Shown here piece after piece: positions 25,200-48,825 of a stretch of 64,000 bases of DNA. The DNA is taken from NCBI RefSeq assembly GCF_963921235.1, contig NC_086107.1:105092001-105156000 (forward strand), read 5' to 3'. Each line of letters opens with the position of its first letter. The first letter of the stretch is position 1. The translations under genes and the position numbers were made by a program. Under the pieces are notes generated by a model. The model saw only the letters and a program-made list of their open reading frames with translations, was not told the DNA's origin and did not search any database. The stretch comes from Mobula hypostoma. Its lineage: Eukaryota.

Positions 25200-25900
25200 C
25201 TTAGATAGATACATGGATACTTTGTAGGTCCCAAAGGAAATTACAGAGTCACAGGAGCATTACAAATGCACAGATATACAGTATTAGAATAGATGTAAGA
25301 CGAATAAATAAAAAATAAGTTATCTTAAACCGTTTAACAAGAGAGGAGGTTATCACTTTCCCGGCTATAGGTTGACTCATGGCTGAAGGTGTGGATGACC
25401 TCATATAGTGCTCTTTGGAGTAGTGCAGTTGTCTTGGTCTATTACTGTAAGTGCTCCTCTTTTCAGCCAAGGTGGCACACAGAGGGTGAGAAACATTGTC
25501 CAGAGTTGTCAGGATTTTCTGTAAAGTCCTTTGTTCTACCACAGCCTCTAGTGTGTCTATAGTGGCTCCTATAAACTTTCTAATCAGTTTATTGAGTCTG
25601 TTGGCATCACCTGTGTTGATGCCATTGCCACAGCACACCAGTGCATGGAAGATTGTACTGGTGACAGCAGACTGGTAGAACATGTGAAGGAGAGGTCTGC
25701 ATACTCCAAAGGACCTCAGTGTCCTCAGGAAGCAGAGGGGACTCTGGCCCTTCTTGTACACAGTCTCTGGGTTGTCTGTCATCCAGGTGCACCCCCAGGT
25801 ACTTGTAGGTCCTCACCACATCCACGTCCTCACCATCAATAGTAACAGGGAGCAGTGCAGGCTTAGACTTCCTGAAATCCATCACCATCTCCTTTGTCTT
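25200..25900 (-). mobile_element. Rex1/Babar-like LINE 3' fragment
   Basis: KTKEMVMDFRK...YKYLGVHLD...LRSFGV...FYQSAVTSTIF, a DUF1891-type C-terminus. Confidence 0.8.
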
Positions 25901-27241
25901 GAATATTGAATCTTGTACCTTATTGTGTGAAGATAATAGTGACAGGTTGTGGCAGCTATACAGGTCTTCCCCAATCTACGAAGCTAAACCTATGTACAAT
26001 CCATACATAACAGACTAGTGGGATGGATTTCTCATCTGCTGGGGGGCTGCAGGCAGCTTCTGCTGGGTAGATGTGTGGCATTTTGGTAGAAAGGATGAGG
26101 AAAGGCAACATAGAATAGAAGATCATGTTGAAATAGAGGAGAAGTTTGAGAAGGACCTGGGGATATAGGTGAACGTCACTGAAAGGCAGATTGAGGAAAT
26201 GGTTAATGAGGTACACACAATTTGGGACATTACCAACAAAGGCAATGAGTATAAAAGTGAGGAAGTAAACTTTTATAAAACAGTGGTCTAGCTTCAGCTG
26301 GAATTTTGTGTCCAATTCTAGTCACCATGTTACGTGAAAGCCTTTGGAGAGTGTCCAGAAAAGATTTTTGAGAATGATTCCTGGGATGAGGAACTGTGGT
26401 TACAAGGATAGCTTAGAGAGTGTGGGACTGCTTTCTTTGGAGAAGAGAAGGCTAAGGGGAGATCTGATTGAAGAAAATAAGATGATGTAGGGTCTGGACA
26501 GGGTAGACAATGGGAAGCAAAAGGAAATGCAGTTACCAGTATCTGGAGCACTGCTATGATATAGAGCTGGTGTAGGCAGGATGGGCTTGTATTTTGTAAT
26601 TCTACAATCTAAACATGTTAGTGTGTCTACGTTTATAATCAAATTTATAAGGGAAGATGCCTCAGTAGAATCAGAGTTCCACAGCATGGTAAAGGTCCTC
26701 CCACCCAACTCATCCATGCTGATCTAGGTACTTACTTGATCCAGTCCTATTTAGTTCCATTTAGTCCAAATTTCTCTAAACCTTCCCTCCCAATGTGCAC
26801 ATCCAGATATCTTTTAGACATTATAATTGTACCCACTTCTACCCCTTCGCCAGACAGCTCGTTCTATATACACACTACCCTCTGTGTGGAAAACTTCTTT
26901 CAGGTCCCTTTTCAGTTTTGCTCCTCTCACCTCAAACCAGTGCCCTCTAGTGTTAGTCTTTGTTGCCCTGGGAAACAAGACGGTGACAATTCACCTTACC
27001 TGTTCCTGTTATGATTTTTTTGTTCTCTATAAGGCTCCTTTGCTCCAGGGAAATCAGTCCCCCTCTATCCAGTCTCTCCTTAAAATTTAAGATGTCAAGT
27101 ACTTGCAACATCTTTGTAGGCCTTTCCTGCACCCTCTATAGCTTAATCACATTTTTCTTTTAGTATTTCAATCAGAATTACACAGAATACTACAATGTAG
27201 TCCACTAATGTCTTCTACAGCTAATGTTCCAACACTAATAC

Positions 27242-27583
27242 CTACTTACTGCCCGTTATGCTGTTGGCATTTAAGGCAACAATGAAGGTTCTCCATCTCT
27301 GTCTGTCCATACCGTTGCACACAGATATAGAAGGATTCTTCATCGCTGTTTCTGTAACAATTTCTTTTTGTCCAGTCAGGGTTGTCAGCCCTGAGCTGAA
27401 CCCCCAAACCTGGAGGACCAGTGGACCACTCTTAGTCTGACCTCTACCCTTTGACCTGTTTGGCATGGGTGACCCTACCAAGAGCCAAAGCACAAGGCTC
27501 TGTCTCCAGCCAACAGAACTCTCTGGATCATTGAGGCACGCAAGCTTCCAAACCCTATGGCAAGGTTGTGGTCCTCTTGGAGG
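27242..27583 (-). mobile_element. Non-autonomous RTE-derived short element (5' UTR fused to 3' end), copy 1
   Basis: Near-identical to 32790-33089 and 48432-48825. RTE/Expander-like 5' UTR joined to a DRQRWRTFIVAL-type RTE 3' end. Confidence 0.8.
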
Positions 27584-32112: not shown

Positions 32113-32789
32113 GGTTTCTTCAATCCATATTTTTCATGATATGCCAAGTACAGAAGTATTACACTACTTTTCAGCAACTATAACGCGCTGTGACAAAGTC
32201 TAAGAGAACAATGGGTCAGCAAGAGACGAGGTGATTACAGGATCATTGTAATCAATTATGAGGCTCTGAAGATTAAATGCTTATGATAAGTATTTCATTT
32301 CTTAAAGTAAGCCTCAGCTGCTCCCCCTCCCCTGTCGATCCCTTTATCTTCATTGGCCCATTAGAAACTCAAACCACCTCCAGGGGGCAGTATCACCCAC
32401 TTTGGGAACTATTCTGTTCTACTGATTACTTTTTAACTTGTGTTGTAAATGCACCTTATTATTTGTTAATTTATTTGTGGTGATATTACTTTATGTGTTG
32501 TGTGTTTGTGAGTTATATGTACTGTGTTGTGCACGTTGGTCCAGGGGAATGTTGTTTTCTTTGGCAGTATACAACTATACATTTGAATGACAATAAATTG
32601 AACTTGAACTTATGAACTTGTGTACCACTGGTAGCTCCCTCTCCCCACCCTCCACCACTCCAAGGAAAAGAAACGATGCCTGTCTATTCTCTCATTGCTA
32701 AAATTTTCCTGGTGAATCTCCCCTGCATCATCTCGTGCAATCATATCCTTCCACTAGTGTGGCAACCAGAAAGTATTCCAGCTATAGTC

Positions 32790-33089
32790 CTACTGACTGC
32801 CCATTACATTTAGGACAGCAATGAAGGTCCTCCATCTCTATCTGTATAGAAAGATTCTTCATAGCTGTTTCTGTAACAATTATTATTTGACCAGTCAGGG
32901 TTGTTAGTCCTGAACGTGGAGGGCCAGTAGACCACTCTTGGTCTGGCCTCTACCCTTTGACCTGTTTGGCATGGGTGACCCTATCAAGAGCCAAAGAACA
33001 AGGCCCTGACTCCGGCCAACATTGCTCTCCTGGTCATTGAGGCACACAAGCCTCCAAACCCTATGACAAGGTTATGGTCCTCTTGGAGG
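32790..33089 (-). mobile_element. Non-autonomous RTE-derived short element, copy 2
   Basis: Same family. Flanked by the 12-bp duplication CCAGCTATAGTC. Confidence 0.82.
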
Positions 33090-33144
33090 CCAGCTATAGT
33101 CTAAATAATATTTTACAAAGTTGTGCCTCCCAGCTCTTATGTTC

Positions 33145-33612
33145 CATAGTAGTCATAGTCATAGTCATACTTCATTGATCCTGGGGGAAATTGGCTTTCG
33201 TTACAGTTGCACCATAAATAATAAATAGTAATAGAAATAGTAATAGTAATATTACTATTAGTAAATAGTAAATAGTAATAGTCATGGAAATAATTAGTAA
33301 TAGAATAGTAATAGAAAAATTGTAATAAATAGTTAAATAGTAATATAGTTAATTATGCCAGTAAATTATGAAATAAGTCCAGGACCAGCCTATTGGCTCA
33401 GGGTGTCTGACCCTCCAAGGGAGGAGTTGTAAAGTTTGATGGCCACAGGCAGGAATGACTTCCTATGACGCTCTGTGTTGCATCTCGGTGGAATGAGTCT
33501 CTGGCTGAATGTACTCCTGTGCCCACCCAGTACATTATGTAGTGGATGGGAGATATTGACCAAGATGGCATGCAACTTGGACAGCATCCTCTTTTCAGAC
33601 ATCACCGTGACA
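33145..33612 (-). mobile_element. Rex1/Babar-like LINE 3' end; other copies at about 12490-12850 and at 34395-34553 plus 37104-37230
   Basis: EKRMLSKLHAILxNxSHPLH...RLIPPRCNTERHRKSFLPVAIKLYN, an (AATAGT)n tract and an (ACTATG)n tail. Confidence 0.75.
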
Positions 33613-34553
33613 GTCATGCTCTGAGTAATGGACAGGTATAGAATATGCTTTCTTCATCACCTTGACGACTTGTGCTGCCCTCTTTAAGGATCCTTGTACT
33701 TATACACTGAGCTTTCTCTGTTTCTCAATACTCTCTCAAGTCCGACCATTCACTGTAGAAACCAAGTTCTAGATACCCTCACAAGAGGATTTATCGTTTT
33801 CACATCCACACTGGAACTAACAAGTTGCAATCAATCCAGCCCTCACTCTCTAAACTGTAAAGTGTACTCTGTACAGCCTCTCCTCATGAGACAACCCTCC
33901 CATTCCAGGTATTTAACTAGTAGACCTTGTGGACCTGCATTAGAACACCCAGATCTCTCTGCTTCGCAGACCATAATAGAGTCATATTTATTTCCTTGTC
34001 AGAGTGGACTATTTACCTTTTCCCACATTTTACTCTACTTGTTAGATCCTTATCCGTTCACTTAACCTAGCTGAGTCCCTCACTTAACCCATCTGCATCC
34101 AGTTTATTAAGGACACCTGCTCGTTAATGCAAATATCTCATTAACCAGTCATGTGGCAACAATTCAATGCATAAAGGCATGCAGACATGGTCAAGATGCT
34201 CAGTTGTTGTTTACATCAAACATCAGAATGGAGAAGAAATGTGATCTAAGTGACTTGGTGCCAGATGGGGTGGTTTGAGTATCTCAGAAACTGCTGATCA
34301 CCTGAGATTTTCATGCACAGCAGTCTCTAGAGTTTACAGAGAATGGTGTGGGGAATAGAAAAAAAACATCTAGTGAGCTGCAAGTCTGTGGGTGTTTTTG
34401 CTACAGTCGCACCATAAATAATTAAATAGTAATATGTAAATTATGCCAGGAAATAAGTCCAGGACCAGCCTATTGGCTCAGGGTGTCTGACCCTCCAAGG
34501 GAGGAGTTGTAAAGTTTGATGGCCACAGGCAGGAATGACTTCCTATGACGTTC

Positions 34554-37103
34554 CTATGGTATTAAACAGGAAATTAGAAATGTGTGCAATAAAGGAACAG
34601 CAGTTATAATGGGTGACTTCAATCTACATGTAGACTGGGTGAACCAAATTGGTAAAGGTGCTGAGGAAGAGGATTTCTTGGAATGTATGCGGGATGGTTT
34701 TTTGAACCAACATGTCGAGGAACCAACTAGAGAGCAGGCTATTCTGGACTGGGTTTTGAGCAATGAGGAAGGGTTAATTAGCGATCTTGTCGTGAGAGGC
34801 CCCTTGGGTAAGAGTGACCATAATATGGTGGAATTCTTCATTAAGATTGAGAGTGACATAGTTAATTCAGAAACAAAGGTTCTGAACTTAAAGAGGGGTA
34901 ACTTTGAAGGTATGAGACGTGAATTAGCTAAGATAGACTGGCAAATGACACTTAAAGAATTGACGGTGGATATGCAATGGCAAGCATTTAAAGGTTGCAT
35001 GGATGAACTACAACAATTGTTCATCCCAGTTTGGCAAAAGAATAAATCAGGGAAGGTAGTGCACCCGTGGCTGACAAGAGAAATTAGGGATAGTATCAAT
35101 TCCAAAGAAGAAGCATACAAATTAGCCAGAGAAAATGGCTCACCTGAGGACTGGGAGAAATTCAGAGTTCAGCAGAGGAGGACAAAGGGCTTAATTAGGA
35201 AGGGGAAAAAAAGATTATGAGAGAAAATTGTCAGGGAACATAAAAACGGACTGTAAAAGCTTTTATAGATATGTAAAAAGGAAAAGACTGGTAAAGACAA
35301 ATGTAGGTCCCCTGCAGACAGAAACAGGTGAATTGATTATGGGGACCAAGGACATGGCAGACCAATTGAATAGTTACTTTGGTTCTGTCTTCACTAAGGA
35401 GGACATAAATAATCTTCCAGAAATAGTAAGGGAGAAAGGGTCCAGTGGGATGGAGGAACTGAGCGAAATACATGTTAGTAGGGAAATGGTGTTAGGTAAA
35501 TTGAAGGGATTGAAGGCAGATAAATCCCCAGGGCCAGATGGTCTGCATCCTAGAGTGCTTAAAGAAGTAGCCCAAGAAATAGTGGATGCATTAGTGATAA
35601 TTTTTCAAAACTCGTTAGATTCTGGACTAGTTCCTCAGGATTGGAGGGTGGCTAATGTAACCCCACTTTTTGAAAAAGGAGGGAGAGAGAAACCGGGGAA
35701 TTATAGACCGGTTAGCCTAACGTCGGTGGTGGGGAAACTGCTGGAGTCAGTTATCAAGGATGTGATAACAGCACATTTGGAAAGCGGTGAAATGATCGGA
35801 CAAAGTCAGCATGGATTTGTGGAAGGAAAATCATGTCTGACGAATCTCATAGAATTTTTTGAGGATGTAATTAGTAGAGTGGATAGGGGAGAACCAGTGG
35901 ATGTGGTATATTTGGATTTTCAAACGGCTTTTGACAAGGTCCCACACAGGAGATTAGTGTGCAAACTTAAAGCACACGGTATTGGGGGTAAGGTATTGGT
36001 GTGGGTGGAGAATTGGTTAGCAGACAGGAAGCAAAGAGTGGGAATAAACGGGACCTTTTCAGAATGGCAGGCCGTGACTAGTGGGGTACCGCAAGGCTCA
36101 GTGCTGGGACCCCAGTTGTTTACAATATATATTAATGACTTGGATGAGGGAATTAAATGCAGCATCTCCAAGTTTGCGGATGACACGAAGCTGGGTGGCA
36201 GTGTTAGCAGTGAGGAGGATGCTAAGAGGATGCAGGGTGACTTGGATAGGTTGGGTGAGTGGGCAAATTCATGGCAGATGCAATTTAATGTGGATAAATG
36301 TGAAGTTATCCACTTTGGTGGCAAAAATAGGAAAACAGATTATTATCTGAATGGTGGCCGATTAGGAAAAGGGGAGGTGCAATGAGACCTGGGTGTCATT
36401 ATACACCAGTCATTGAAAGTGGGCATGCAGGTACAGCAGGTGGTGAAAAAGGCGAATGGTATGCTGGCATTTATAGTGAGAGGATTCGAGTACAGGAGCA
36501 GGGAGGTACTACTGCAGTTGTACAAGGCCTTGGTGAGACCACACCTGGAGTATTGTGTGCAGTTTTGGTCCCCTAATCTGAGGAAAGACATCTTTGCCAT
36601 AGAGGGAGTACAAAGAAGGTTCACCAGATTGATTCCTGGGATGGTGGGACTTTCATATGAAGAAAGACTGGATGAATTGGGCTTGTACTCGTTGGAATTT
36701 AGAAGATTGAGGGGGGATCTAATTGAAACGTATAAGATCCTAAAGGGATTGGACAGGCTAGATGCAGGAAGATTGTTCCTGATGTTGGGGAAGTCCAGAA
36801 CGAGGGGTCACAGTTTGAGGATAGAGGGGAAGCCTTTTAGGACCGAGATTAGGAAAAACTTCTTCACACAGAGAGTGGTGAATCTGTGGAATTCTCTGCC
36901 ACAGGAAACTGTTGAGGCCAGTTCATTGGCTATATTTAAGAGGGAGTTAGATATTGCCCTTGTGGCTACGGGGGTCAGGGGGTATGGAGGGAAGGCTGGG
37001 GCGGGGTTCTGAGTTGGATGATCAGCCATGATCATAATAAATGGCGGTGCAGGCTCGAAGGGCCGAATGGCCTACTCCTGCACCTATTTTCTATGTTTCT
37101 ATG
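34554..37103 (+). mobile_element. 5'-truncated CR1 LINE (endonuclease C-terminus, reverse transcriptase, 3' UTR); young but with a frameshift and a stop
   Basis: ORFs 34582-35220 (IMGDFN, LDWV, SDHN), 35228-36385 (PGPDG, YLDFQTAFDKV, GVPQGSVLGP, KFADD) and 36413-37012. Frameshift in the A-run near 35210, TGA at 36383, (TTTCTATG)n tail. Confidence 0.95.
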
Positions 37104-47362: not shown

Positions 47363-48431
47363 TTTGATAAAGTGAAGCACAATAAGTTATTTGAGATACT
47401 ACAGGAAACTCTAGCTTTAGATTCGAAAGACCTCCGCCTAATCAGAAATCTGTACTGGGAACAAACTGCCACTGTAAGAATAGATGGAGAAGTGAGTCAG
47501 TTTACAAAAATCAAGAGAGGCATTAGACAAGGGTGTGTTTTCTCCCCTGATTTATTTAATGTGTACAGTAAAACAATATTACAAAAAATAAGAGATATCT
47601 TGGGAATCAAAGTTGGCGGTGAAAACATCATTAATTTCAGATATGTGAATGACACTGTGTTAATTGCAAGTACGGAGGAAGAACTACAAACTTAATTGAT
47701 ATAATTGTTGAAGAAAGTGCAAAAATGAGTCTATCTATCAATTGCAAAAAGACAGAATGCATGGTGATCTCCAAAAAGAAGGAGAATCCCATCTGCAGGC
47801 TGAGAATAAATGGGGAAGACATAAAACAAGTACAGAACTTTTGCTACTTAGGAAGCTGGGTAACATTGGATGGCAGGTGCGACATGGACATCAAAAGAAG
47901 AATAGGGATGGCGAAAGACACCTTTATGAGAATGAAGAGTATACTGACCAATACTAAACTAGGCATGACAACCCGCCTCAGAGTACTGAAATGTTACGTT
48001 TATCCAGTTATGTTGTATGGCTCAGAATGTTGGACAATATCTAGTAACATGAGGAAATGAATTGAAGCAGCAGAGATGTGGTTTTTGAGGAGGATGCAAA
48101 GAACATCATGGACGAAACGAATATCTAACGAGGATGTCATGAACAGAGCAAACACAAAAAGACAAATAATGTATGAGATCATGAAAAGGCAACGTAACTT
48201 CATTGGACATGTGATTAGGAAAGAGGAGTTAGAATGCACGGTAATTATGGGAAAGATTGAAGGGAAGAAAGCAAGAGGAAGGCAAAGACAAATGATGATG
48301 GAGACAGCAGCCAGAGAACTGGAAATGAATACCAATGAATTGATCCACTTGACCCGAAACAGGAGTGGGTGGGCCATGGCAGTCAGAGCTCAAACGGGGC
48401 ACGGGACGTGATGATGATAATGATGATGATT
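47363..48431 (+). mobile_element. 5'-truncated RTE-clade LINE with (GAT)n tail
   Basis: RGIRQGCVFSPDLFNVY, FRYVND, FCYLGS, LYGSECW. Tail gatgatgataatgatgatgat. Flanked by TTAAGGCA(A/G)C duplication. Confidence 0.9.
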
Positions 48432-48825
48432 TAAGGCAGCAACGAAGATCCTCCATTTCTGACAGTGTTCAGGGCTTCCTTCAACATGTCAGTATCTTCC
48501 TCTTGGTTTTCACTACTGTCAGTCATGCAGTTCCCGGGTGGAGACTGAGGAATACCGTCACACTCAGACGTGGAAGGATTCTTCATTGCTGTTTCCGTAA
48601 CGGTTTTGTTTTACCAGTCAAGGTTGTTAGCCCTGAGCTGAACCCCCGAACCTGGAGGACCGGTGGACCACTCTTAGTTTGGTCTCTACCCTTTGACCTG
48701 TTTGTCATGGGTGACCCTACCAAGAGCCAAAGGATAAAGCCCTGACTCCAGCCAACATAGCTCTCCAGGTCATTGATGCAGGCAAGCCTCCAAAACCAAA
48801 GACAAGGTTGTGGTCCTCTTGGAGG
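48432..48825 (-). mobile_element. Non-autonomous RTE-derived short element, copy 3 (its 3' tip at about 47329-47362 is split off by the RTE insertion)
   Basis: Same family, longer internal segment. Confidence 0.8.

What the first reader, a model, noticed from the sequence alone, without database searches (positions are those of the whole stretch)
32929..33089. Candidate HDV-like self-cleaving ribozyme defining the exact 5' end of a non-autonomous RTE element (3 copies)
Seen: three copies (27423-27583, 32929-33089, 48665-48825; all minus strand, each 161 nt) start at the same base, CCTCCAAGAGGACCA. In copy 2 a perfect 12-bp TSD abuts that base. By eye, the consensus RNA folds in HDV order: P1 CCUCCAA/UUGGAGG, J1/2 GA, P2 GGACCAC/GUGGUCC, P3 ACC/GGU (as in the HDV antigenomic ribozyme), L3 UUGUCRUAG, a single G-C P1.1 pair, a long P4 (UGACC/GGUCA, UGCCU/GGGUA), and J4/2 ACUAAG with the putative catalytic C just before P2'. 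Established: HDV-like ribozymes process the 5' ends of R2, RTE and L1Tc retrotransposons. Inference: this short internally deleted RTE cuts itself out of host transcripts and borrows RTE enzymes. It deviates from the norm in having C rather than G at position 1, a 9-nt L3 and a swapped P1.1 pair, so it could be a variant class.
Basis: partly seen in the sequence, partly recalled or inferred. Interest (0 to 1): 0.8.

Follow-up and report, generated by a model that had tools for sequence, protein, structure and literature searches.

The report
HDV-like ribozyme heading RTE retrotransposons
The first 161 bases of a short, very abundant jumping element fold like the hepatitis-delta self-cutting RNA, and the same fold is kept through matching base changes in related RTE elements from this genome and other sources, so it very probably trims the element's RNA to its exact 5' end; this is a known trick seen here in an uncatalogued lineage.

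Summary
The own genome holds 679 near-exact copies of the 39-base head, against 0 for a reversed control.

The element is an internally deleted derivative of an RTE-clade LINE. It keeps the 5' UTR, the first ~50 codons, the last ~25 codons and a (GTAA)n tail.

The HDV-like nested double pseudoknot holds up across 14 lineages: four from this genome and ten metagenome RTE loci.
- P1 has 7 unpaired positions of 98, against 28.5 when partners are permuted.
- P2 has 5 of 98, against 31.3.
- The single P1.1 pair switches G-C to A-U (9 G-C, 4 A-U, 1 G·A).
- The base of P4 covaries at 5 of 5 pairs.
- L3 (UU-R-N-C-G) and J4/2 (C-N-A-A) are conserved.

Target-site duplications abut the first base of P1.

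The L3 ancestor carries a CpG.

Cleavage itself is untested, and no Rfam model matches. Ribozymes of this kind at RTE 5' ends are already known, so this is a new member of a known kind. Its lineage-specific traits are C-G at the cleavage site, a purine-in-L3 P1.1 pair and a conserved branched P4.

The parts
33090..33101 (-). Upstream target-site duplication of copy 2 (GACTATAGCTGG), ending at the base before the first ribozyme base
33083..33089 (-). Copy 2, P1 5' strand (element positions 1-7, CCUCCAA); the predicted cleavage site is immediately 5' of 33089
33074..33080 (-). Copy 2, P2 5' strand (positions 10-16), after the 2-nt J1/2 (GA)
33058..33072 (-). Copy 2, P3 (ACC/GGU, positions 18-20/30-32) enclosing L3 (positions 21-29; UUGUCAUAG here, ancestral UUGUCGUAG). 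G23 is the L3 partner of P1.1
33050..33057 (-). Copy 2, P1 3' strand (positions 33-39, UUGGAGG) followed by C40, the J1/4 partner of P1.1
32942..33049 (-). Copy 2, P4 domain (positions 41-148): base helix 47-51/140-144, second helix 55-58/128-131, then three hairpins (64-76, 77-103, 104-123)
32936..32941 (-). Copy 2, J4/2 (positions 149-154; CCAAGA in this copy, CUAAGA in most copies). C149 (window 32941) is the putative catalytic cytosine
32929..32935 (-). Copy 2, P2 3' strand (positions 155-161)
32790..32928 (-). Copy 2, rest of the short element: conserved post-ribozyme 5' UTR piece, ORF start remnant (ATGAAGAAT...), ORF C-terminal remnant (...RWRTFIAVLNV...) and a decayed (GTAA)n-type tail
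32778..32789 (-). Downstream target-site duplication of copy 2
27423..27583 (-). Copy 1, ribozyme domain (161 nt; one P1 pair decayed, GGAAG)
27239..27422 (-). Copy 1, rest of the short-form element up to ...GGCAGTAAGTAGGTA
48665..48825 (-). Copy 3, ribozyme domain (161 nt; L3 and P3' decayed)
48429..48664 (-). Copy 3, rest of a long-form element (keeps ~50 N-terminal codons). The 3' end is replaced or followed by a (CAT)n run

Best explanation
The 161-nt head is an HDV-like self-cleaving ribozyme. It forms the 5' end of an RTE-clade non-LTR retrotransposon family and of that family's internally deleted, non-coding derivatives, which include the three window copies.

Proposed mechanism:
1. The element has no recognisable promoter of its own and is transcribed as part of longer host or read-through transcripts (inferred).
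2. The RNA folds into a nested double pseudoknot. P1 is positions 1-7/33-39, P2 10-16/155-161, P3 18-20/30-32, with a one-pair P1.1 (23/40) and a large branched P4 (shown by covariation).
3. The conserved cytosine of J4/2 (C149, motif C-N-A-A) and the L3 loop (UU-R-N-C-G) form the active site. They cut the chain immediately 5' of C1 (inferred from likeness to HDV-type ribozymes).
4. The released RNA starts exactly at C1. RTE endonuclease/reverse transcriptase copies it by target-primed reverse transcription starting at the (GTAA)n tail. New copies therefore carry target-site duplications that abut C1 (boundaries and duplications shown).
5. The short elements keep both ends and borrow the enzymes in trans (inferred from structure and copy number).
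For: Sharp common 5' end:
- 679 versus 0 control matches of the 39-base head.
- 36 of 40 scored hits start at base 1.
- 30 of 30 loci have unrelated flanks upstream of the head.
- The same boundary appears in contigs of 4 runs labelled as other organisms.

Target-site duplications: exact duplications of 8 bp or more ending at base -1 occur in 7 of 49 copies, against 0 of 49 for a control 20-mer. Six of these are 11-15 bp long and directly follow the tail. L065 also has a 13-bp duplication with one mismatch.

RTE parentage.

Fold conserved by covariation:
- Families A and B differ at 10 pairs on both sides. 92.4% of cells are paired, against 28-51% when partners are slid.
- Over 14 lineages, P1 has 7 unpaired of 98 against a permuted mean of 28.5 (0 of 20000 permutations as good). 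P2 has 5 of 98 against 31.3 (0 of 20000). P1.1 is Watson-Crick in 13 of 14, split 9 G-C, 4 A-U and 1 G·A (18 of 20000).
- On the 16 metagenome matches, 89.7% are paired against 31-45% slid. 18 pairs change on both sides against 5-8 slid. P2 changes at 7 of 7 pairs. The P4 base changes at 5 of 5 and is 100% paired.

Conserved core: P3 is ACC/GGU or GCC/GGU, L3 is UU[G/A]NCG, and J4/2 is C-[U/G/A]-A-A in families A, A2, B and D and in most of the 14 strong metagenome matches (L122 reads C-G-U-A and found no parse).

Geometry matches published norms: P1 of 6-7 bp, P2 of about 7 bp, a short J1/2 (PMC4908430, part 1 of text read), J1/4 of 0-2 nt, and a catalytic C first in J4/2 (PMC3774820 section 16; PMC10879173 passages).

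Specificity: an HDV-type descriptor found 48 sites in 364 kb of held sequence, 41 of them at these heads, against 3 sites in the reversed control.

Competing fold: the thermodynamically favoured local hairpin (36-40/47-51) shows no covariation. It is 72% paired with 0 double changes, and 492 of 500 shuffles reach that value.
Against: - No cleavage data exist. All sequencing runs found are held only as contigs, so RNA 5' ends could not be read.
- No Rfam family matches, at gathering score or at E up to 10, either the window copy or eight relatives.
- The pair at the cleavage site is C-G in 13 of 14 lineages, not the G·U wobble of HDV (HDV detail recalled).
- P1.1 has the purine in L3, the reverse of HDV (recalled).
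- The register of the P4 base next to C149 is unresolved, because positions 41-46 and 145-148 hardly vary. One or more nucleotides may separate P4 from the cytosine.
- In the genome's family B, the first P3 pair is broken in 2 of 3 copies.
- The nested minimum-free-energy fold is not unusually stable (z = -1.21).
- The strands used were chosen by best self-complementarity within allowed offsets. This flatters the observed value against the permutations.
- The alignments were fitted to P2, P3 and P4.
- On the 80-row alignment dominated by decayed family A copies, slid controls show as many double-change pairs (16-26) as the true structure (24).
- One metagenome relative (L144) has a poor P1 (3-4 mismatches) and a G·A at P1.1. 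Another (L122) gave no parse.
Confidence: 0.85

Rival explanations
1. The head is a conserved structured 5' UTR that has HDV-like topology but is not catalytic. It could be a platform for the element's protein, an IRES-like translation start, or an internal promoter read at the DNA level. The uniform 5' end would then come from transcription starting at C1.
For: - Covariation shows structure, not catalysis.
- The large branched P4 and the next ~45 nt of the UTR are conserved between families with only 38-40% endonuclease identity. That is more conservation than a ribozyme alone needs.
- HDV-like ribozymes of R2 and L1Tc are reported to also act in translation or as a promoter (PMC6765202 passages; PMC3185411 abstract and passages).
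- C-G at the cleavage site departs from HDV (HDV detail recalled).
Against: - The invariant single-stranded motifs are exactly those of the HDV active site: C-N-A-A in J4/2 and U..CG in L3.
- The first base of P1 coincides with the first base of thousands of copies and with the edge of the target-site duplications.
- No tRNA-like gene is found, and no B box at 1 mismatch or fewer lies in any copy.
- A dual role would add to self-cleavage, not replace it.
Confidence: 0.08
2. The head is a different class of self-cleaver, for example a truncated twister variant as described at the 5' end of the RTE element Perere-3.
For: Twister variants sit at the 5' ends of some RTE elements (PMC8501958 abstract and passages; PMC7761336 passage). 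A ribozyme at this place therefore need not be HDV-like.
Against: - The order of the covarying helices (P1, P2, P3, P3', P1', P4, P4', P2') is the HDV order.
- No twister or other ribozyme family of Rfam matches at E up to 10.
- The copies start with CCUCC, not the A-rich cleavage site described for T-variants.
- All of P1 lies inside the element, whereas in Perere-3 the 5' strand of P1 comes from the target-site duplication (PMC8501958 abstract).
Confidence: 0.02
3. The helices are chance complementarity in an ordinary SINE. Its sharp 5' end would reflect polymerase III transcription or simply the short length of the element.
For: - Short elements are seldom 5'-truncated.
- Within family A, copies decay neutrally and give no covariation.
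- The nested fold energy is unremarkable.
Against: - Covariation is seen across independent families and sources.
- There is no tRNA-like head and no B box.
- The head is shared with the coding RTE element.
- The descriptor control gives 3 hits against 41 true heads.
Confidence: 0.02

Closest known systems
[quoted passage not shown] 2011; Webb et al. 2009). These are known to me only through the review PMC6765202; the two papers themselves are not held.
   Same: Same position (first bases of an RTE-type element without a promoter of its own), same double-pseudoknot order, and the same proposed role: release of the element RNA from a co-transcript, possibly with help in translation.
   Different: I could not check whether this lineage is among those described. 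Here the cleavage-site pair is C-G, P1.1 is a single purine(L3)-pyrimidine(J1/4) pair that switches G-C to A-U, and P4 is a conserved ~100-nt branched domain. The drz-Agam-2 ribozymes are described as having a structured J1/2 insert and a 12-bp P2 (PMC4908430); these have a 2-4-nt J1/2 and a 7-bp P2. No Rfam family matches.
R2 ribozyme and the R2-derived SIDEs (short internally deleted elements) (PMC3774820; PMC3414825 abstract; PMC6765202)
   Same: An autonomous LINE with a 5' HDV-like ribozyme, plus non-coding derivatives made by internal deletion. The derivatives keep the ribozyme and the 3' end and use the parent's protein.
   Different: R2 inserts at one 28S rDNA site and is cut out of a Pol I co-transcript. 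This element is dispersed, with variable target-site duplications, and reaches thousands of copies. R2 P4 is variable or absent, whereas here it is conserved.
L1Tc / NARTc of Trypanosoma cruzi (L1TcRz within Pr77) (PMC3185411; PMC3383444 abstract)
   Same: A 5' HDV-like ribozyme shared by an autonomous LINE and its truncated non-autonomous partner. P1.1 is a single base pair.
   Different: It belongs to a different clade (ingi/L1Tc), is a 77-nt minimal ribozyme, and has a documented promoter function at the DNA level. Nothing of that kind was tested here.
HDV genomic and antigenomic ribozymes and the CPEB3 ribozyme
   Same: Helix order and sizes, a 3-bp P3 abutting P1', L3 with U...CG, and J4/2 C-N-A-A. 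The comparison with the HDV sequences is from recall, not from a call.
   Different: G·U versus C-G at the cleavage site, C(L3)-G versus purine(L3)-pyrimidine in P1.1, a simple P4 hairpin versus a branched domain, and a different biological setting.
Twister-variant ribozymes of Perere-3 (RTE clade, Schistosoma) (PMC8501958)
   Same: A 5' self-cleaver of an RTE element with target-site duplications next to the cleavage site. It does the same job.
   Different: It is a different fold class, and its P1 5' strand is supplied by the duplication rather than by the element.

Membership tests
HDV-like self-cleaving ribozymes | Nested double pseudoknot in the order P1-P2-P3-P3'-P1'-P4-P4'-P2', supported by compensatory changes | tested here: met
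   10 double-change pairs, 92.4% paired against 28-51% slid. P1 7/98 and P2 5/98 unpaired against permuted means of 28.5 and 31.3; 18 double-change pairs against 5-8 slid.
HDV-like self-cleaving ribozymes | Helix geometry: P1 of 6-7 bp, P2 of about 7 bp, P3 of 3 bp directly abutting P1', and a short J1/2 | tested here: met
   P1 7, P2 7, P3 3, J1/2 2-5 nt, with no base between P3' and P1' in any lineage. Norms taken from PMC4908430 and PMC3774820 section 16.
HDV-like self-cleaving ribozymes | P1.1: one or two pairs between L3 and the base(s) after P1' | tested here: met
   13 of 14 Watson-Crick (9 G-C, 4 A-U, 1 G·A; 18 of 20000 permutations as good); 8 G-C, 3 A-U, 1 other. This pair was not part of the model that made the alignment. 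The polarity (purine in L3) differs from HDV (recalled).
HDV-like self-cleaving ribozymes | A cytosine at the first position of J4/2 (the general acid), followed by conserved adenosines | tested here: inconclusive
   C-N-A-A is present 1-3 nt before P2' in families A, A2, B and D and in 13 of the 14 strong metagenome matches; the 14th reads C-G-U-A. Whether the C directly follows the last P4 pair cannot be settled, because positions 41-46 and 145-148 do not vary. Its catalytic role is not testable here.
HDV-like self-cleaving ribozymes | Cleavage immediately 5' of the first P1 nucleotide, so the whole ribozyme stays on the 3' product | tested here: inconclusive
   Indirect only. Copy boundaries and target-site duplications coincide with the first P1 base. 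No RNA ends could be read.
HDV-like self-cleaving ribozymes | G·U wobble closing P1 at the cleavage site (typical of HDV and CPEB3; recalled) | tested here: not met
   pair 1 is C-G in 13 of 14 lineages and U·G in 1. This feature is typical rather than universal for the family (recalled), so it lowers likeness to HDV more than it argues against family membership.
HDV-like self-cleaving ribozymes | Mg2+-dependent self-scission giving 2',3'-cyclic phosphate and 5'-hydroxyl ends, abolished by mutating the catalytic C to U | not testable with these tools
   Needs a bench assay.
HDV-like self-cleaving ribozymes | Match to a curated Rfam model of the family (HDV, CPEB3, drz-type models) | tested here: not met
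   no ribozyme family at gathering score or at E up to 10, for the window copy or for 8 relatives. Rfam models omit pseudoknots and are lineage-specific, so this is weak evidence.
RTE clade of non-LTR retrotransposons | A single ORF of about 1000 aa with an N-terminal AP-type endonuclease and a reverse transcriptase, and no separate ORF1 | tested here: met
   relatives of 978-1043 aa carrying PF03372/PF14529 + PF00078 on 3.2-3.7 kb contigs; in L065 the endonuclease starts ~50 codons after the ATG that follows the head.
RTE clade of non-LTR retrotransposons | A very short 3' UTR ending in a short tandem repeat, and variable target-site duplications | tested here: met
   The ORF stop lies in the (GTAA)n-type tail. 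The tail consensus ...TTACTTAC (reverse strand) appears in 4 runs. Duplications of 11-15 bp are seen.
RTE clade of non-LTR retrotransposons | Placement inside the RTE clade in a reverse-transcriptase tree | not tested
   Only names given by sources ('craniofacial development protein 2-like') and the C-terminal motifs point to RTE. No reference set of clades was available.
Internally deleted non-autonomous LINE derivative (SIDE-like) | Shares both termini with the autonomous element, lacks the coding middle, and has several independent deletion forms | tested here: met
   short form (~300-345 nt), long form (~400 nt), forms like L004 and L037, and the 1.18-kb L065. All have the complete head and the same 3' end.
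tRNA/7SL/5S-derived SINE | A 5' head derived from a small RNA gene with internal Pol III boxes | tested here: not met
   ARAGORN finds no gene in 32600-33300. No B-box match at 1 mismatch or fewer falls inside any of the three copies.

The most novel reading that the evidence does not exclude
These heads define a distinct, phylogenetically wide subclass of HDV-like ribozymes tied to one RTE lineage. That lineage occurs in this 3.5-Gb animal genome, in at least four other labelled organisms, and in coral-, mollusc- and fish-type relatives. The subclass has a C-G cleavage-site pair, a reversed P1.1 pair that flips G-C to A-U, and a conserved three-hairpin P4 domain. It is absent from Rfam and possibly from the literature. 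The conserved P4 plus the adjacent GGUCCUCCAGG module would serve a second function, such as binding of the RTE protein or cap-independent translation of the 5'-hydroxyl RNA.
Probability: 0.3. Interest if true: 0.65.

Novelty: new member of a known kind. Interest (0 to 1): 0.45.

Why it matters
It explains how a promoter-less RTE family and its thousands of non-coding passengers obtain one exact 5' end. It supplies a well-supported comparative alignment: 14 lineages, with covariation in P1, P2, P1.1 and P4. That alignment covers an HDV-like ribozyme lineage that current RNA family libraries miss, so genome annotation pipelines leave these heads unlabelled.

The natural variation tests how much the HDV active site tolerates. 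Examples are C-G in place of G·U at the scissile site and the G-C to A-U switch in P1.1. This makes a compact, directly testable mutational series. The conserved branched P4 is a candidate for the second roles proposed for R2 and L1Tc ribozymes, namely protein binding and translation start.

Tried and rejected
- **RNA-end evidence.** The look-up of sequencing runs listed no holder on record as RNA. All 22 runs are Logan contigs. Laying 4 of the 22 gave boundaries but no molecule starts (table 6: none). Nothing can be said about expression or cleavage in vivo.
- **Rfam.** Nothing was found at gathering score or at E up to 10.
- **The LINE in the window.** The element at 34549-37012 was considered as the partner. 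It shares no sequence with the element.
- **Full-length partner behind an exact head.** 0 of 20 exact-head loci with 5 kb downstream hold one. The partner was reached instead from a LINE-specific 3' probe and a protein search.
- **More copies of family B and weaker relatives from the own genome.** These could not be fetched. Family B therefore rests on 3 copies plus the hit table. In that table, of 18 hits covering the 5' end, 12 start at the C and 6 start one base earlier; one of the 6 is the query itself.
- **Strict descriptor.** Requiring CG in L3 and no mismatch found only 1 site, because of CpG decay, so it was relaxed.
- **First free parse of the metagenome matches.** It chose spurious registers for 5 of 12 and was replaced by a parse anchored on L3 and GGU.
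- **Counting P1 with the pair-counting tool.** MAFFT put end gaps at the 5' end, so P1 was counted by script.
- **The 80-row alignment.** It is uninformative for double changes, because decay noise equals signal.
Rejected: it is unpaired in family B.
- **Local hairpin 36-40/47-51.** Rejected.
- **Second helix option at the P4 base.** Neither 41-43/145-147 nor 41-43/146-148 could be chosen, since each is contradicted once by lineage D.
- **RTE lineage C.** L097 lies upstream of a 1018-aa open frame. It has no model hit and no relaxed descriptor hit in 945 nt.
- **Earlier findings of the scan.** None were returned.
- **Papers not held.** Ruminski 2011 and Webb 2009. No supplements were opened.
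Full report
**1. The observation**

Aligned with 120 nt of flank, they share nothing upstream and become alike exactly at CCTCCAAGAGGACCA. A covariance model made later returns the very same coordinates: 32929-33089, 27423-27583 and 48665-48825.

Copy 2 carries the perfect 12-bp duplication GACTATAGCTGG. It touches the first C on one side and follows the tail on the other.

The window lies in a 3.48-Gb assembly of 200 contigs. In that assembly:
- The 161-nt stretch has 2863 first-look candidates. Of the 40 that were scored, 36 align from base 1, 3 from base 2 and 1 from base 5.
- The 39-base head is found 679 times at 2 mismatches or fewer, and its reversed control 0 times.
- In 30 of 30 loci fetched around the best hits, the upstream flanks are unrelated. 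These loci were chosen for full-length matches, so that count is biased.

An independent look comes from contigs of four sequencing runs labelled as four other (coded) organisms. There the element is present in very large numbers. Similarity stops at the same base, with loose ends that have no consensus: 82, 39, 1218 and 893 contigs, with smaller groups of 15 and 172 one base inside. The 3' boundary in those runs ends in ...TTACTTAC on the laid strand, which is a (GTAA)n tail.

**2. What the element is**

The repeat is 300-450 nt long, not 161 nt. After the head come, in order:
- a conserved UTR piece;
- an ATG followed by about 50 codons in the long form;
- the last ~25 codons of a LINE ORF (...DRQRWRTFIAALNASGVTGSK, with the stop inside the tail);
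- (GTAA)n-like repeats.

Several different deletion forms share the same two ends.

A probe from a form that keeps more of the ORF end led to LINE 3' halves. Their translation ends ...WRWIGHVMRRE...HWTPEGRRKRGRPKTTWRRTVE...AKDRQRWRTFIAAL. It also led to L065, a 1.18-kb copy that contains the full head, the UTR, the ATG, an AP-endonuclease N-terminus (KIGFWNVQTMYNN...IQCYVPTNDR), an internal deletion, the reverse-transcriptase C-terminus, the tail, and a 13-bp duplication with one mismatch abutting C1.

A protein search with that endonuclease piece gave 3191 first-look candidates in the genome, of which 150 were scored. Of 16 such copies whose upstream 430 nt I fetched, 15 carry the head.

In the large protein collection the relatives are single ORFs of 978-1043 aa. 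They have endonuclease and reverse-transcriptase domains, sit on contigs of 3.2-3.7 kb, and come from molluscs, corals, teleosts and a turtle. Some are named 'craniofacial development protein 2-like'.

Together with the tandem-repeat tail and the near absence of a 3' UTR, this fits the RTE clade. No clade tree was made. The LINE that lies in the window at 34549-37012 is unrelated.

**3. Is the fold real?**

Within one family the copies decay neutrally and cannot show covariation, so I looked for diverged relatives.

*A second RTE family in the same genome.* Family B has 38-40% endonuclease identity and 29 DNA hits of its head. Its head is alignable to family A. Comparing family A with family B:

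| Feature | Family A | Family B |
|---|---|---|
| P1 | CCUCCAA/UUGGAGG | CCUCCCU/GGGGAGG |
| P2 | GGACCAC/GUGGUCC | GUGCUGU/ACAGCAC |
| P1.1 | G-C | A-U |
| P4 base | GCCUC/GAGGC | GCCUU/AAGGGC |
| L3 | UUGUCGUAG | UUAUCGU |
| J4/2 | CUAAGA | CGAAU |

On that MAFFT alignment (8 rows of A, 3 of B), the full pseudoknotted structure has 92.4% of cells paired, against 28-51% when the partners are slid by 1-3 columns. It has 10 pairs changed on both sides, against 3-5 slid. These rows amount to about two independent lineages.

*A descriptor scan of held sequence.* I wrote an HDV-type descriptor and ran it over all 364 kb held. It found 48 sites against 3 in the reversed sequences. Of the 48, 41 are such heads. 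They include two further lineages: D (P1 CUUCUCC/GGAAAAG with one C·A, P2 GGAUUGU/ACAAUCC) and A2 (7-nt L3, shorter P4).

*Metagenome relatives.* A covariance model of P2 + P3 + P4 was built. An alignment of 14 RTE proteins was used to fetch 77 RTE loci from metagenome contigs. In these loci the model finds 16 matches at E up to 10. Fourteen of them have E of 1.4e-12 or better, all on the coding strand upstream of the ORF where the N-terminus is present.

I parsed them with anchors on L3 and GGU. Of 12 tried, 11 parsed, 1 gave no parse, and 1 of the parsed had a poor P1. Joined with A, A2, B and D, and taking one of the near-identical L123 and L124, they give 14 lineages. Over these 14 lineages:
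- P1 has 7 unpaired positions of 98, against a mean of 28.5 (minimum 14) when 3' strands are permuted among lineages.
- P2 has 5 of 98, against 31.3 (minimum 17).
- None of 20000 permutations does as well for either helix.
- Every P1 position except the first, and every P2 position, shows two to four kinds of standard pair.
- P1.1 is G-C in 9, A-U in 4 and G·A in 1; 18 of 20000 permutations reach 13 Watson-Crick pairs.

There is a caveat. The strands were picked by best self-complementarity within J1/2 of 0-6 nt and J2/3 of 0-2 nt, which favours the observed value.

On the model-fitted alignment of the 16 metagenome matches, 89.7% of cells are paired against 31-45% slid, and 18 pairs change on both sides against 5-8 slid. 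All 7 P2 pairs and all 5 pairs of the P4 base helix change on both sides, and the P4 base is 100% paired. P1.1 was not in the model, so its count (8 G-C, 3 A-U, 1 other) is not fitted.

The hairpin that free-energy folding prefers (36-40/47-51) shows no compensatory change, and 492 of 500 shuffles reach its pairing.

**4. The core**

The unpaired stretches that make the HDV active site are the conserved ones:
- L3 reads UU-[G/A]-N-C-G-N(0-3).
- P3 is ACC/GGU or GCC/GGU and abuts P1' without a spacer.
- J4/2 reads C-[U/G/A]-A-A, followed by 1-3 nt and P2'.

In family A the L3 CpG has mostly decayed to CA in this genome. G is read at that place in 38-55% of the depth in the four laid runs (place 1637), and all other lineages have CG. 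The ancestral loop is therefore UUGUCGUAG.

From recall, not from a call: HDV L3 is U-C-C-U-C-G..., and its J4/2 is C-G-A-A (genomic) or C-U-A-A (antigenomic). The likeness thus extends to sequence.

Published norms are met:
- P1 of 6-7 bp, P2 of about 7 bp, and a J1/2 spacer that is needed but short (PMC4908430, first part read).
- J1/4 of 0-2 nt, variable P4, and few invariant bases beside the catalytic C (PMC3774820, section 16 and passages).
- Catalytic C at the first position of J4/2 (PMC10879173, passages).
- A single-pair P1.1 in L1TcRz (PMC3185411, passages).

Three traits differ from HDV and are conserved here:
- The first pair of P1 is C-G in 13 of 14 lineages.
- The P1.1 purine sits in L3.
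- P4 is a branched domain of about 85-110 nt (base helix, second helix, three hairpins) that is alignable across all lineages.

The helix UGCCU/GGGUA is not kept. How positions 41-46 pair with 145-148 next to the cytosine cannot be decided, because they barely vary.

**5. The ends**

Exact duplications of 8 bp or more that end at base -1 and recur after the tail are found in 7 of 49 distinct copies. A control 20-mer taken 35-55 nt upstream gives 0 of 49. Six of the seven are 11-15 bp long and directly follow a (GTAA)-type tail. Copies are several percent diverged, so exact matching undercounts.

The inserted DNA therefore begins with the first nucleotide of P1. This is what a template RNA cut at the HDV-type site would give.

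ARAGORN finds no tRNA-like gene in the element, and no B-box match at 1 mismatch or fewer lies in any copy.

**6. What is not shown**

Nothing here shows cleavage.
- No run is on record as RNA, and all runs are held as contigs.
- No Rfam family matches the window copy or eight relatives. This was expected for models without pseudoknots, but it means there is no curated support.
- The nested fold energy is ordinary (z = -1.21).
- Family B in this genome rests on three copies, two of which lack the first P3 pair. More could not be fetched.
- Another RTE lineage with a 1018-aa open frame shows no such head within 945 nt, so the ribozyme is a trait of one RTE lineage, not of all.

**7. Comparison and novelty**

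[quoted passage not shown] So are ribozyme-bearing non-autonomous derivatives: the R2 SIDEs and NARTc. The role in release from co-transcripts, with possible help in translation, is also in print (PMC6765202 passages; PMC3414825 and PMC3383444 abstracts; PMC3185411). Other RTE elements use twister variants instead (PMC8501958; PMC7761336).

My three full-text searches found no paper describing this lineage, its C-G site or its reversed P1.1 pair. However, the two primary surveys (Webb 2009, Ruminski 2011) are not held, and no supplements were read. I therefore cannot say it is undescribed.

I file it as a new member of a known kind, with lineage-specific variations that may deserve a subclass.

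**8. Verdict**

- Observation: confirmed.
- Interpretation: supported, with corrections to P4, L3 and the position of the cytosine.
- Most likely mechanism: co-transcription, HDV-type self-cleavage 5' of C1, then trans-mobilisation of the short elements by RTE enzymes.
- Confidence: 0.85 for the ribozyme reading. The main rival is a structured but non-catalytic or dual-purpose 5' UTR.

Noticed in passing
window 32880-32928 (-), and the same place in L098/L099/L100 and the metagenome loci (the 12 nt after P2'): A module directly after the ribozyme (…CUGGUCCUCCAGGUU…GGGCUAACAACCC…) is 84% identical over 44 nt between families A and B. Its start (GGUCCUCCA or close to it) follows P2' in 8 of the 11 parsed metagenome rows, although P1 and P2 differ. 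It does not covary with P1', so it is not a P1 mimic. Its function is unknown.
   Followed up: partly
window 34549-37012 (+): Three consecutive open frames (223, 396 and 208 aa) with Exo_endo_phos_2 and RVT_1 domains. This is another non-LTR retrotransposon and shares no sequence with the element studied.
   Followed up: partly
window 25249-25812 (-): A 187-aa open frame with a weak match to ALKBH8_N (PF09004, E 1.2e-06). It is probably part of another repeat and was not examined.
   Followed up: no
L097 (G000:C36:131602163-131603107, minus): A third RTE lineage, with 38% endonuclease identity and a 1018-aa open frame. It has no match to the ribozyme model and no relaxed HDV-type parse in the 945 nt upstream. 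It does keep a look-alike of the GGGUUAGCAGCCCC...UACAGAAAC UTR piece.
   Followed up: partly
L030:1120-1264 (-), about 60 nt downstream of a family A copy: Lineage D ribozyme, with different P1 and P2 and J4/2 CAAAGA. It is followed by sequence unlike the A/B UTR. The element it heads was not identified.
   Followed up: partly
window 48409-48429 (-): Copy 3 loses the usual 3' end after ...CCUUAAAU and runs into a (CAT)n microsatellite.
   Followed up: no
L013:1150-1800 laid with runs X1, X3, X17, X18: The element is present at very high depth in contigs of runs labelled as four different coded organisms, with the same majority letters. Smaller word shares occur in runs of seven more labels. 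The family is therefore shared by a group of species.
   Followed up: partly
window 33090 (-), the base before C1 of copy 2: Base -1 is G, which could pair with C40, extend P1 and compete with P1.1. That effect was reported to lower cleavage in L1TcRz (PMC3185411 passage). It may make this particular copy a poorer cutter.
   Followed up: no
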